DNA of 64,000 nt, taken from NCBI RefSeq assembly GCF_009914755.1, contig NC_060935.1. One strand, written 5' to 3'. This DNA is from the human T2T-CHM13v2.0 reference genome, Homo sapiens. A program made the translations under genes and the position numbers. This document shows, piece after piece, positions 54,801-57,800 of this stretch. The stretch's first letter is position 1. Each line of letters starts with the position of its first letter. The notes beneath the pieces are model-generated. The model worked only from the letters and a program-made list of their open reading frames with translations, had not been told where the DNA came from and did no database searches.

Positions 54801-57800
54801 GTGGAGGCTAGGCAATTATGAACTTGGTCAAATATGTTTATTCTTTTTATGCAAGGCTGAAAGCAGAATCTTTCTGACTAGTTATCTCTAATTAAATGTA
54901 TGGTTTCTCTTGCTATCTTTTTTCATTCACATGTTAAGCCACTATTTAACGAGTGCCAATCAACTACATACGTACTAGGGATGTTAAGTGTGACCCAGGA
55001 AAATGTAGTCATGTAGGCAACCTCATGCAAATAAAAAGGGGAAGTAGAGAGAAAGGGGGCATCTAACTAATCTGGATAGTCACAGAAGGCTTCCTAACTA
55101 ATATGTAGGCTGTCTGGGACCTAAAGGATGATTAAAGTTAACTAGGAAAGTATGGAAGGCAAGGAGCAAGTGCAATGGCCAGGGAGTGAGAGAGCACGGT
55201 GGATTCCAGGGAGTGGAAGGGATAACACCAAGTTGGGGAGGGGGTGGGGAAATGGACATTCTCACAGACAGTTGTTAAGAGCATAAATTTATACAAATTC
55301 ATGAATTTCTTCAGAGAAATCTGGGGACATGTTCAAAGCCTTACAAAGGTGTACCTTTTGAACCAGAAATTTCATTTCTGGGAATTTACCTTAGGGAAAT
55401 AATCAAGCATATATGCAGTGATTTAGCAACAAGGAAAATAAACATGCCAAAGCTTATTAAAGCAAAACGTTTAAAACAACCGAAATGCCCAATCTATAGA
55501 CAGCTAGTTAAATAAACTACAATGTAACCATATTTCAGGCTCTACAATCATTACAAACTGCATTGAAGATTAATATTTATTGACATGAAAAATCGTTTAC
55601 TACTTATCTCTAATTGAAATATTACTTTTAGAGAAAAATGCAAGATATAGTACAGATCTATTTCAAAAATAAATGAGCAGAAGACAGCTGCTTATTTTTG
55701 GATTGGAAAATTATCAACTTTTTTAGCTTCTTTTTTGCTTATCTTTTTAATATTTCCTCAATGAAACTGTAATGCTTTTTAAATAAGAAATATTAGTTAC
55801 TTATCAACTTTTTTTGAAGATTTAATTGTCCTATCAGTGAACTGAGATGAAGTAAGCCTTACATTCAGTTCTTGACCAGCACATTATGAGGACAAAAAAG
55901 GAAGATGAAATCCAGGAAAGAGATCCAAATAGCACATCCCCACACCAATGCCCATAAACCTCTTCCTCTCAACACAGGAACAGGTGTTGACATGAACAGA
56001 GAAGCCTTTACCCACATCGTACCTGGACAAGTCCAAATGGGAAGAAACGCTCCGTCTGCCCCTGGGAACCACGGTGGAAGGTTTCACGCCAGTCTTCGAT
56101 GAGTGCAGGGAATGTGCAATTGTACAGATCCGTGTTATAATTTATATTGGACTCCCCTAAAAACAGTCCAAATTGTAAAGGGAGTTTGGAGTAGACTGCA
56201 AAAATGACCACACATTACTCTCCTCCCTCCATCCATGCCCTGAGGTAGTGGTCTTCCCACGGTCTCTCTGGACTGGTCTTTTTCCAGCCAGTGGGGCATC
56301 AGCAAATGTGGTACGAACAGAGGCTTGAAAAGTACTTCAGGTTTGGGCTCTGTCCTCTCCTGATGACCCTGGAATCCTGAGACTATTATATAAATAATAA
56401 ATGAGTCTATACTGGCTTGCTGAAGGATAAGAGGTCACCTCAGAACCATGTTGCAACAGCCCCCAGACAATACATCTAGGGAGAGACCATCCTAGGTCAT
56501 CCAGCCACCAGACAATCTGCCAGGTGGCCAAAGACACATAAGAGGTCCCAGCAGGAATTAGCTGAAGCAGCCCAGACATAAAAACTACCCTGCTCACCCA
56601 CAGAACAGTGAGCTGAATAAAATTATAAAGTTATTGTTGCTTTAAGCCACTACGTTCTAGGGTGCTGTGTTATACAGCAAACGCTATCTGATACAATGGA
56701 GAAAGAGTACACTGAACACTTACCCTGGTACCATACTACCCCTTTCAGAGTCATATTGCACAGTGGATGGATCATGGCATTCCAGAGAACAGAGTGCTTA
56801 CTGGGACCAGTTACAGAATCGTATGGAATGGACCTGAAATCATATGATGCACAAGTGTCACCAGAGAGCCAGTGATTGATCACATAAGGGTCCCTAATTG
56901 GTCATCTATCCACTTTCACTTGTGGTAAACTTCTGATGAAAGCAACACAGAATTAAAATTGAATCGAAACTCTTTTTCTTGAAAACATATGAATATTCTC
57001 TGAATTTCACCTCCAGGTTATTCCCAAAATAAGTGTATCGGTCAGCTTTCTATGGTAATTAAAGGTAATTTCTAAGGTAATTAAAGCCACAGGGAAGGAG
57101 TGCTTTATTGTTGAGTTTCTCACATTGTGGGGGGGGGCCAATAAATTTACCTAACTTTTATTAAATAAACCTTTATTTAATGCACAGACATTTAGGTTGT
57201 TTTAAACTTTTTGCTTTTATATGGAATGCCAAGATCATCTTCCTTATAGCTAAGTCATTGCATACATGCTTAACTATATCCATAAGATAAATTCCCAGAA
57301 ATGAAACTGCTGTGTCAAAGGGCATCTTTTTTAAGGCTCTGAACACGTTCTCAAATTTCTCTGTAGAATATTTATATGAATTTATCCTGTAGCTGCTGCG
57401 TGTGAGAAGCCCACTTGCCCACACCCTCGGGATTATCCCTTCCACCCCCAGAGATCTGGTCTAACGCTCACTCCTACTCTACTGCAGGCCATTCTTCCTG
57501 TTCCAAAGTTGAATATCTTCACTCCCCCACAGGCAAGCTTTTACCCAAACTATACCCAGAGCTCAAGCCCATCCTCCTCCCACAGGGCTTCCCAGCGTGA
57601 ATGAGACATGGTCCATGAAAGCAAGTCACATACTGCTCATCTCTACATTGATGTTAGTATCGGGATTTGTATTCACTAGCCCTTTCCCTCCCCAAGTATT
57701 CTTCCTGATCCAGCCTTTCCTAAGCAGGTGTTCATAATCAGTATACTGATACATTTCTTTGAGTACATGTTTATAACATTTGTTCTTCCTGTTGGATTGT

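What the first reader, a model, noticed from the sequence alone, without database searches (positions are those of the whole stretch)
55238..57428. Non-Alu inverted repeat brackets SIAE exons 6-7: candidate back-splicing (circRNA) stem built from ancient L1 relics
Seen: 55307-55487 and the reverse complement of 57189-57368 align almost gap-free at ~144/182 (~79%, by hand). This includes a 19-nt exact block TTTCATTTCTGGGAATTTA and 27/29 at the inner end; many mismatches are transitions, and weaker similarity extends to 55238/57428. The arms lie in introns 7 and 5, about 535 and 355 nt from the exon 7 donor and exon 6 acceptor, and enclose exactly exons 6-7 (244 nt). Known: reverse-complementary intronic sequences drive back-splicing; I recall a catalogued circSIAE (hsa_circ_0000367) spanning about this interval, which needs verifying. 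Inference: two independent L1ME-age copies should be much more diverged from each other, so this suggests local inverted duplication, gene conversion or selection for pairing. Because 244 is not a multiple of 3, looping out these exons would frameshift the linear mRNA, so the stem could tune active SIAE levels.
Basis: partly seen in the sequence, partly recalled or inferred. Interest (0 to 1): 0.85.

Follow-up and report, generated by a model that had tools for sequence, protein, structure and literature searches.

The report
Old L1 inverted repeat flanking circSIAE
Two inverted copies of a decayed LINE-1 fragment sit in the introns on either side of SIAE exons 6-7, can pair in the pre-mRNA, and are the likely but untested reason these two exons are spliced into the already known circular RNA circSIAE.

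Summary
Window 55209-55487 and the reverse complement of 57189-57449 align at 209 matches, 51 mismatches and 20 gap columns (nhmmer E about 1e-35). The arms lie in SIAE introns 7 and 5 and enclose exactly exons 6 and 7, 244 nt.

Both arms derive from the C-terminal coding part of LINE-1 ORF2. They are each other's best match in the whole genome. They form a two-member clade with a long shared branch of 0.18 and short tips of 0.13-0.14. This points to a local inverted duplication or gene conversion, not two independent insertions.

In the pre-mRNA the arms are predicted to form about 220 base pairs (-278 kcal/mol against -90 for shuffles). Mean pair probability is 0.96 in a 2.4-kb context.

I found no sign of selection for pairing. 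No experiment or cross-species data could be reached.

Verdict: a plausible, ordinary-mechanism, non-Alu driver of a known circRNA, with an unusual origin. Interest is moderate.

The parts
55209..55487 (+). Arm 1 in SIAE intron 7. It is a LINE-1 ORF2 3'-region relic, L1 sense on the + strand and so antisense in the SIAE pre-mRNA. This is the downstream arm of the stem, 536 nt from the exon 7 donor.
   Evidence: The open 78-codon piece 55279-55512 has its best PDB hit at L1 ORF2p residues 1168-1216, E=0.006.
57189..57449 (-). Arm 2 in SIAE intron 5. It is the same L1 ORF2 region, L1 sense on the - strand and so sense in the pre-mRNA. This is the upstream arm of the stem, 356 nt from the exon 6 acceptor.
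   Evidence: The open 95-codon piece 57176-57460 has its best PDB hit at L1 ORF2p residues 1166-1213, E=0.014.
55169..55534 (+). Widest extent of arm-to-arm homology on the intron 7 side. Both edges are low confidence.
   Evidence: nhmmer alignment with an extended query. The MFE stem also extends outward.
57140..57498 (-). Widest extent of arm-to-arm homology on the intron 5 side. Both edges are low confidence.
55488..55592 (+). Continuation of the L1 relic past the inner end of arm 1. It is homologous to other family copies but only weakly to arm 2.
   Evidence: Homology to L010 runs to 55591/55592, while arm 2's homology to L010 stops at 57182-57188.
56724..56833 (-). SIAE exon 6 (110 nt). 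Its acceptor at 56833 is the back-splice acceptor.
   Evidence: NM_170601.5; the intron ends ...TTTCAG.
56023..56156 (-). SIAE exon 7 (134 nt). Its donor at 56023 is the back-splice donor.
   Evidence: (the intron starts GTACGA).
56157..56723 (-). Intron 6 (567 nt). It is removed from the 244-nt circle.
   Evidence: The 244-nt size is stated in PMC8820919.
53970..54281 (-). Alu in intron 7. It is a possible rival pairing partner. Its strongest predicted partner lies in the same intron.
   Evidence: -499 kcal/mol with 50316-50655; -469 and -488 with the intron 4 Alus. The Alu identity is recognised from the sequence, not from a tool.
50316..50655 (+). Alu in intron 7. It is the within-intron partner of the Alu at 53970-54281.
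59142..59486 (+). Alu in intron 4. Pairing with the intron 7 Alu would bracket exons 5-7, not 6-7.
59901..60232 (+). Second Alu in intron 4, with the same geometry as the first.

Best explanation
An ancient LINE-1 copy lies in SIAE intron 7. Only the part encoding the C-terminal region of ORF2 is recognisable.

After it had already decayed a good deal, a piece of about 280-360 nt came to exist in inverted orientation in intron 5, 1.7 kb away. This happened either by a local inverted duplication or by gene conversion between two neighbouring copies.

The two arms are the only long complementary pair between introns 5 and 7. In the pre-mRNA they should zip into an imperfect duplex of about 220 bp. 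That duplex brings the exon 7 donor next to the exon 6 acceptor, which favours the back-splice that yields the known 244-nt circSIAE (hsa_circ_0000367).

What is shown: the repeat, its L1 origin, the special kinship of the arms, the predicted pairing, and the published existence of the circle.

What is inferred: that the pairing happens in cells and raises circle output. Also inferred is that each back-splice costs one productive linear mRNA, because an exon 5-8 join would be out of frame.
For: Geometry:
- The arms sit in introns 7 and 5 and enclose only exons 6-7.
- There is no other inverted pair of 40 nt or more between these two introns, and neither arm has a within-intron partner.

The circle:
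- It is exons 6+7, 244 nt, with the junction sequenced (PMC8820919 passages).
- A circSIAE ranked 3rd of the 15 top plasma circles by RNA-seq (PMC8553830 passages).

Pairing:
- RNAduplex gives -278.4 kcal/mol with 222 bp. With 100 dinucleotide-shuffled partners the mean is -89.7 +/- 7.7.
- In the MFE of a 2461-nt pre-mRNA piece, 221 of 840 pairs are arm-to-arm. Their mean ensemble probability is 0.96, and 89% exceed 0.9.
- Inverted repeats of about 30-40 nt suffice in minigenes (PMC4201285, abstract seen).

Origin:
- The arms are reciprocal best genome-wide hits, 173 bits against 68 and 88 for the runners-up.
- The best of the 80 other fetched loci scores 78/72 bits, against 118/112 arm-to-arm.
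- The arm1+arm2 split wins in 91 of 91 quartets, with site sums of 1923 against 351 and 401.
- In the ML tree the arms are separated from the 22 other copies by a branch of 0.177 (support 99.1/100), with tips of 0.140 and 0.132.
- The four-point internal branch is 0.10-0.15 in 15 of 15 pairs.
- L010, a central family member, drew 3009 first-look candidates, while each arm query drew only 11-12. So the arms' lineage is essentially private.
Against: - There is no in-cell evidence of pairing and no arm deletion test.
- The Alu pairs are thermodynamically stronger (-469 to -499 kcal/mol), although they bracket exons 5-7 or lie within intron 7.
- circRNAs can also form through RNA-binding proteins or exon-skipping lariats.
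- The genome search skips very common words and scores only its best candidates. The 80 comparison loci were picked by similarity, so a closer copy could have been missed.
- The alignments behind the tree involve sequences only 65-80% alike.
- No poly(A) tail, target-site duplication or shared non-L1 flank was seen that would separate duplication from conversion.
- PMC8516420 (passages) reports that circRNA-flanking dimers are mostly young transposons, so an old L1 pair is atypical.
Confidence: 0.6

Rival explanations
1. Bystander repeat. The inverted L1 pair is a neutral relic, and circSIAE is made for other reasons: strong splice sites, RNA-binding proteins that bridge the introns, an exon 6-7 skipping lariat, or Alu pairing followed by alternative site choice.
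For: Nothing here measures circle output. Alu-Alu duplexes nearby are stronger (-469 to -499 kcal/mol). There is no excess of wobble-compatible changes (17 against 9, p=0.17). No paper found links the repeat to the circle.
Against: The arms enclose exactly the circularised exons, and they are the only long complementary pair between introns 5 and 7. Predicted pairing is near-certain in a 2.4-kb context. The Alu geometry predicts exons 5-7, not 6-7, and the intron 7 Alu has its best partner within its own intron. No annotated transcript skips exons 6-7.
Confidence: 0.3
2. Two independent retrotransposition events of one rare L1 subfamily happened to land in opposite orientation on either side of exons 6-7. 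On this reading the shared states are subfamily markers, not a shared local history.
For: An arm-specific 23-nt motif has 53 genomic matches at 3 or fewer mismatches, against 2 for the control. So some 'arm-specific' states do occur elsewhere. The genome search is not exhaustive.
Against: Of the 24 loci fetched through arm-specific motifs, only 3 were homologous, and none scored above 33 bits. No copy in the genome search comes near the arm-arm score. The arm tips (0.13-0.14) are among the shortest of 24, while the shared branch is 0.18. A subfamily that young would have left many copies about 77-80% identical to the arms. Arm 2 also lacks a detectable L1 3' end, which is unusual for a retrotransposed copy.
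Confidence: 0.1
3. The complementarity has been kept by natural selection, through compensatory changes, because the stem sets circSIAE or SIAE dosage.
For: Arm-arm identity is far above that of same-family pairs. The core is better preserved than its edges. Wobble-compatible transitions outnumber disruptive ones, 17 to 9.
Against: 17 against 9 is not significant (p=0.17). Observed identity (about 79-80%) is what tips of 0.13+0.14 predict under neutral decay. Selection on any single pair of a 220-bp duplex would be very weak (inference). About 40 paired double changes would be needed to build the shared branch, whereas one duplication or conversion explains it.
Confidence: 0.1

Closest known systems
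Inverted Alu pairs (IRAlus) and other reverse-complementary matches flanking circularised exons. Sources: Liang and Wilusz 2014, PMC4201285, abstract seen. The model of competition between pairing across and within introns (Zhang et al. 2014) is recalled.
   Same: Complementary sequences in the two flanking introns, a few hundred nt from the splice sites, are predicted to pair and bring donor and acceptor together. Neither arm has a within-intron competitor.
   Different: The arms are not Alu. They are about 280 nt of decayed L1 ORF2 sequence at 80% complementarity, and they are a unique pair in the genome rather than members of an abundant, interchangeable family.
Inverted MIR elements driving ciRS-7/CDR1as (PMC7371899; title and start of abstract seen).
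   Same: An old, mammalian-age, non-Alu transposon relic pair is proposed as the circularisation stem.
   Different: There the role was shown by deletion. Here it is only predicted. The element here is a LINE, not a SINE, and the pair seems to come from a local duplication or conversion.
Mouse Sry circular transcript flanked by long genomic inverted repeats
   Same: The complementary arms come from a local genomic inverted duplication rather than from two transposon insertions.
   Different: The Sry arms are many kb long and nearly identical. Here they are about 0.3 kb and 20% diverged, inside a multi-exon coding gene.
The general picture that circRNA-flanking dimers are young, species-specific transposons (Gruhl et al. 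2021, PMC8516420; passages seen).
   Same: Transposon-derived reverse-complement dimers in the flanking introns.
   Different: This dimer is made of an old L1 whose arms last shared an ancestor about 0.13-0.14 substitutions per site ago, so it is an exception to the 'young TE' rule.

Membership tests
Intronic reverse-complementary match that promotes back-splicing | Two complementary sequences in opposite orientation in the introns immediately flanking the circularised exons | tested here: met
   the arms lie in introns 5 and 7 and enclose only exons 6-7.
Intronic reverse-complementary match that promotes back-splicing | A back-spliced junction joining exactly the enclosed exons exists | tested here: met
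   PMC8820919 passages: exons 6 and 7, 244 nt, junction sequenced. No reads were examined here.
Intronic reverse-complementary match that promotes back-splicing | Cross-intron pairing is stable and not out-competed by within-intron partners | tested here: met
   -278.4 kcal/mol against -89.7 +/- 7.7 for shuffles. 221 arm-arm pairs with mean probability 0.96. No within-intron partner. Only a 2.4-kb context was folded.
Intronic reverse-complementary match that promotes back-splicing | Removing or mutating an arm lowers the circle, and restoring complementarity rescues it | not testable with these tools
   This needs a minigene or genome editing.
Intronic reverse-complementary match that promotes back-splicing | Evidence of the duplex in cells (A-to-I editing, PARIS or RIC-seq chimeras) | not testable with these tools
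   No editing or RNA-RNA interaction data are available. Supplements are closed.
LINE-1 relic | Homology to L1 ORF2 protein or coding sequence | tested here: met
   For both arms the best PDB hit is L1 ORF2p, about residues 1166-1216 (E=0.006 and 0.014). The related copy L010 hits residues 1132-1212 at E=3e-24. Pfam gave nothing.
LINE-1 relic | 3' end with a poly(A) tail and target-site duplication | tested here: inconclusive
   None was recognisable downstream of either arm, as expected at this age.
LINE-1 relic | Assignment to subfamily L1ME | not testable with these tools
   No RepeatMasker/Dfam is available, and building a consensus is barred.
Local inverted duplication or gene-conversion pair | The two copies are each other's nearest relatives in the genome | tested here: met
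   reciprocal best hits, 173 bits against at most 88. None of the 80 other loci comes close.
Local inverted duplication or gene-conversion pair | Shared derived states, meaning a supported clade with a long shared branch | tested here: met
   91 of 91 quartets. ML branch of 0.177, support 99.1/100. Four-point branch of 0.10-0.15 in 15 of 15 pairs.
Local inverted duplication or gene-conversion pair | Homology extends into non-repeat flanks (duplication), or stops inside the repeat while both copies continue (conversion) | tested here: inconclusive
   Similarity drops sharply at 55487/57189 and fades by 55534/57140. Arm 1's L1 continues to 55592, while arm 2's ends at 57136-57188.
RNA structure kept by selection | Excess of pair-preserving over pair-breaking changes | tested here: inconclusive
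   17 wobble-compatible against 9 disruptive transitions, binomial p=0.17.
RNA structure kept by selection | Covariation across species | not testable with these tools
   No other mammalian genome is reachable.

The most novel reading that the evidence does not exclude
A decayed L1 fragment was copied in inverted orientation across two coding exons. That created a private, one-of-a-kind stem, which gave rise to an abundant circRNA. The stem has since been retained because circSIAE output, or the accompanying loss of in-frame SIAE mRNA, matters for the host. This would be a case of a circRNA born from a small structural mutation rather than from transposon insertions, and it could be dated by presence or absence across mammals.
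Probability: 0.1. Interest if true: 0.6.

Novelty: new member of a known kind. Interest (0 to 1): 0.4.

Why it matters
circSIAE is a much-cited biomarker and antiviral candidate, yet none of the papers I could search describes how it is made. A unique, non-Alu stem only about 0.3 kb long makes the biogenesis cleanly testable. One small deletion should remove the circle without touching exons, which would also allow circle-specific loss-of-function studies.

The apparent origin by local duplication or conversion of an already old L1 piece is a counter-example to the view that circRNA stems come from young transposons. It also offers a way to date the birth of this circRNA. SIAE itself has been discussed in autoimmunity, so a cis element that diverts transcripts into a frameshifting path could be of some medical interest. 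That last point is speculative.

Tried and rejected
1. Coding constraint on the arms. Both arms keep long open L1 frames, 78 and 95 codons in the extended arms. Such frames are common among the 29 family segments: 32-98 codons, with the arms at 86 and 69, and antisense controls reach 92. Arm-arm mismatches by codon position are 8/7/12. Rejected.

2. Selection for pairing through wobble bias. 17 against 9, p=0.17. No support.

3. Pfam naming of the arms. 0 families for 3 of 3 pieces. I used PDB sequences instead.

4. A hidden subfamily sharing the arms' states.
- The arm-specific 23-mer is enriched, 53 against 2.
- The inner-end 23-mer is weakly enriched, 142 against 81.
- The 5' 18-mer is not enriched, 917 against 789.
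- Only 3 of the 24 loci fetched this way were homologous, none above 33 bits.

5. The same 5' truncation point as proof of duplication. Many unrelated copies also start aligning to L010 near its positions 590-615, so this is not informative.

6. Poly(A) tail or target-site duplication. Not seen.

7. Literature.
- No paper in the searchable library on circSIAE biogenesis or its flanking repeats.
- No mouse Siae circle found. The one candidate paper only names a human circle.
- The plasma study gives no coordinates for its circSIAE in the main text.
- Supplementary tables are closed, and they may list SIAE junctions, editing sites or knock-down responses.

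Full report
OBSERVATION

The inverted repeat is real. The repeat finder reports three collinear inverted pairs between 55202-55487 and 57189-57456. A gapped local alignment joins them into 55209-55487 against the reverse complement of 57189-57449. 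It has 280 columns: 209 matches, 51 mismatches (26 transitions) and 20 gap columns.

In the 64-kb window, nhmmer finds each arm with the other at 118 and 112 bits (E about 1e-35). Nothing else scores better than E=0.07. With longer queries, weak homology continues to 55169-55534 and 57498-57140.

SETTING IN THE GENE

NM_170601.5 has 10 exons. Exon 6 is 56724-56833 (110 nt) and exon 7 is 56023-56156 (134 nt), together 244 nt.

Arm 1 lies in intron 7, 536 nt from the exon 7 donor. Arm 2 lies in intron 5, 356 nt from the exon 6 acceptor. Both splice sites are canonical.

Joining exon 5 to exon 8 shifts the frame and gives a stop 121 nt into exon 8.

THE CIRCLE IS KNOWN

- PMC8820919 (passages) states that circSIAE is hsa_circ_0000367, lies at hg19 chr11:124517260-124518071, is 244 nt long, and is formed from exons 6 and 7 with the junction sequenced. 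The 811-nt span equals window 56023-56833.
- A circSIAE was among the 15 most abundant plasma circles, rank 3 by RNA-seq, in PMC8553830 (passages). That paper's main text gives no coordinates.
- hsa_circ_0000367 appears in 24 papers of the library and circSIAE in 16.
- None of the searches turned up a study of how the circle is made. Supplements, which were closed, may hold more.

WHAT THE ARMS ARE

The longest stop-free pieces of both arms have human LINE-1 ORF2p as their best match among PDB sequences, at residues 1166-1216. The E-values are 0.014 for arm 2 and 0.006 for arm 1.

A better-preserved relative on chrX (locus L010) matches ORF2p residues 1132-1212 at E=3e-24. So the arms are relics of the part of L1 that encodes the C-terminal region of ORF2.

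Arm 1 carries the L1 sense strand on +, which is antisense to SIAE. Arm 2 carries it on -. Pfam has no model for this region. The L1ME label could not be tested.

KINSHIP OF THE ARMS

- Genome-wide search. Each arm's best non-self match is the other arm, at 173 bits. The runners-up score 68 and 88 bits. The three searches gave 11, 12 and 11 matches in all.
- Other loci. I fetched 80 in total: 18 from those hits, 28 through the 19-mer, 24 through arm-specific motifs, and 10 of the best relatives of L010. The best of them is L010 at 78/72 bits. All others score 57.5 bits or less.
- All pairs. Among 406 pairs of 29 family segments, the arm pair ranks third. The two pairs above it are 96-97% identical and look like recent duplicates.
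- L010 is a central member of a large family. It drew 3009 first-look candidates, and the 40 that were scored are 69-84% identical to it. The arms drew only 11-12 candidates.
- Quartets. In all 91 quartets the split 'arm1+arm2 against the other two' has the most sites, with sums of 1923 against 351 and 401.
- ML tree of 24 sequences and 333 columns. The arms stand apart from the other 22 on a branch of 0.177 (SH-aLRT 99.1, UFBoot 100). Their tips are 0.140 and 0.132, the 3rd and 4th shortest of 24, in a range of 0.10-0.74.
- Pairwise K2P distances. The internal branch is 0.10-0.15 in 15 of 15 four-point estimates, and d(arm1,arm2)=0.24.

The simplest reading runs as follows. One L1 copy decayed for roughly half of its life. 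It then came to exist twice, either by a local inverted duplication or because two neighbouring copies were homogenised by gene conversion. The two copies then decayed separately.

At commonly used neutral rates, tips of about 0.135 suggest an order of 60-110 million years. This is my inference, with wide error.

Arm 1's L1 continues to about 55592, while arm 2's L1 ends at about 57136-57188. This mildly favours arm 1 as the parent.

CAVEATS ON KINSHIP

- The genome search skips very common words and scores few candidates.
- The comparison loci were chosen by similarity.
- The alignments are of sequences 65-80% alike.
- One arm-specific motif is enriched in the genome, 53 against 2, so part of the shared branch may reflect subfamily differences.

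PAIRING

In the pre-mRNA (the - strand), RNAduplex gives -278.4 kcal/mol with 222 pairs. The cofold gain over the monomers is -162 kcal/mol. With 100 dinucleotide-shuffled partners the mean is -89.7 +/- 7.7, and the best is -116.

In the MFE of a 2461-nt stretch containing both arms and the exons, 221 of 840 pairs are arm-to-arm. In the ensemble they have a mean probability of 0.96, and 89% exceed 0.9.

RIVAL PAIRINGS

Four Alus are present.

- The intron 7 Alu (53970-54281) pairs best with another Alu in the same intron (-499 kcal/mol).
- It pairs nearly as well with two Alus in intron 4 (-469 and -488). That pairing would bracket exons 5-7, not 6-7.

The published circle is exons 6-7, which fits the L1 stem better than the Alu geometry. 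No annotated transcript skips exons 6-7.

SELECTION

There is no positive evidence for it.

- Of the 26 transitions, 17 give G-U wobbles in the sense RNA and 9 give A-C mismatches (p=0.17).
- The identity observed is what the tip lengths predict.
- The long open frames in the arms are not unusual for this family, and mismatches are spread 8/7/12 over codon positions.

COMPARISON WITH WHAT IS KNOWN

The mechanism is the standard one: complementary intronic sequences promoting back-splicing.

- Liang and Wilusz, PMC4201285 (abstract seen): 30-40 nt suffice.
- MIR elements for ciRS-7, PMC7371899 (title and start of abstract seen).

Three things are different here. The arms are an old L1 relic. 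They are a private pair rather than members of an abundant family. They seem to have arisen by local duplication or conversion, which recalls the inverted repeats around mouse Sry (recalled, not read).

Gruhl et al. (PMC8516420, passages) find that such dimers are mostly young transposons, so this locus is an exception rather than a new principle.

VERDICT

- The structural and literature parts of the interpretation are supported.
- The origin inference is supported for duplication or conversion, and not for selection.
- The functional claim is plausible but untested.
- This is a new member of a known kind, of moderate interest. Its main value is that it makes circSIAE biogenesis and circle-specific knock-out directly testable.

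Noticed in passing
window 53970-54281 (-), 50316-50655 (+), 59142-59486 (+), 59901-60232 (+): Four Alu elements form strong inverted pairs (-469 to -499 kcal/mol). The cross-intron pairs bracket exons 5-7 and would predict a 422-nt circle. The strongest pair is within intron 7. Whether an exon 5-7 circle exists was not checked, because no circRNA database was available.
   Followed up: partly
window 37139-37592 (+), 7858-8355 (-), 17405-17822 (+): Three more copies of the same L1 ORF2 3'-region family lie in the window. They are detectable with the well-preserved copy L010 as query but not with the arms. This shows how far the arms have drifted from the rest of the family.
   Followed up: partly
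window 41771-44584: In the supplied RefSeq annotation, the last exons of TBRG1 (+ strand, ends at 44584) and SIAE (- strand, last exon 41771-45860) overlap tail to tail for about 2.8 kb. This is a potential source of sense-antisense RNA.
   Followed up: no
window 45117-45250 (+): The 5S rRNA pseudogene RNA5SP352 lies inside the SIAE last exon (3' UTR region) on the opposite strand, according to the supplied annotation.
   Followed up: no
window 57129-57137: A run of nine G on the + strand (C9 in the SIAE pre-mRNA) sits just inside the point where arm 2's L1 homology fades. It may mark the edge of the copied or converted segment, or a later insertion.
   Followed up: no
window 57176-57460 (-) and 55279-55512 (+): Both arms keep stop-free L1 ORF2 frames of 95 and 78 codons. 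This is within the range seen in other old copies (32-98 codons) and in antisense controls, so it is not evidence of coding constraint.
   Followed up: yes
L036 (chr3:12.85 Mb) vs L039 (chr3:132.2 Mb); L020 (chr8:99.9 Mb) vs L032 (chr2:95.3 Mb): Two pairs of L1-family segments from distant places are 96-97% identical. That is far more than family background, so they probably lie in recent segmental duplications.
   Followed up: no
window 60473-63151 (-): The predicted isoforms XM_054369152.1 and XM_054369153.1 carry a 2.7-kb exon that runs through most of intron 4 up to a point just downstream of exon 4. It looks like an intron-retaining or alternative first or last exon model.
   Followed up: no
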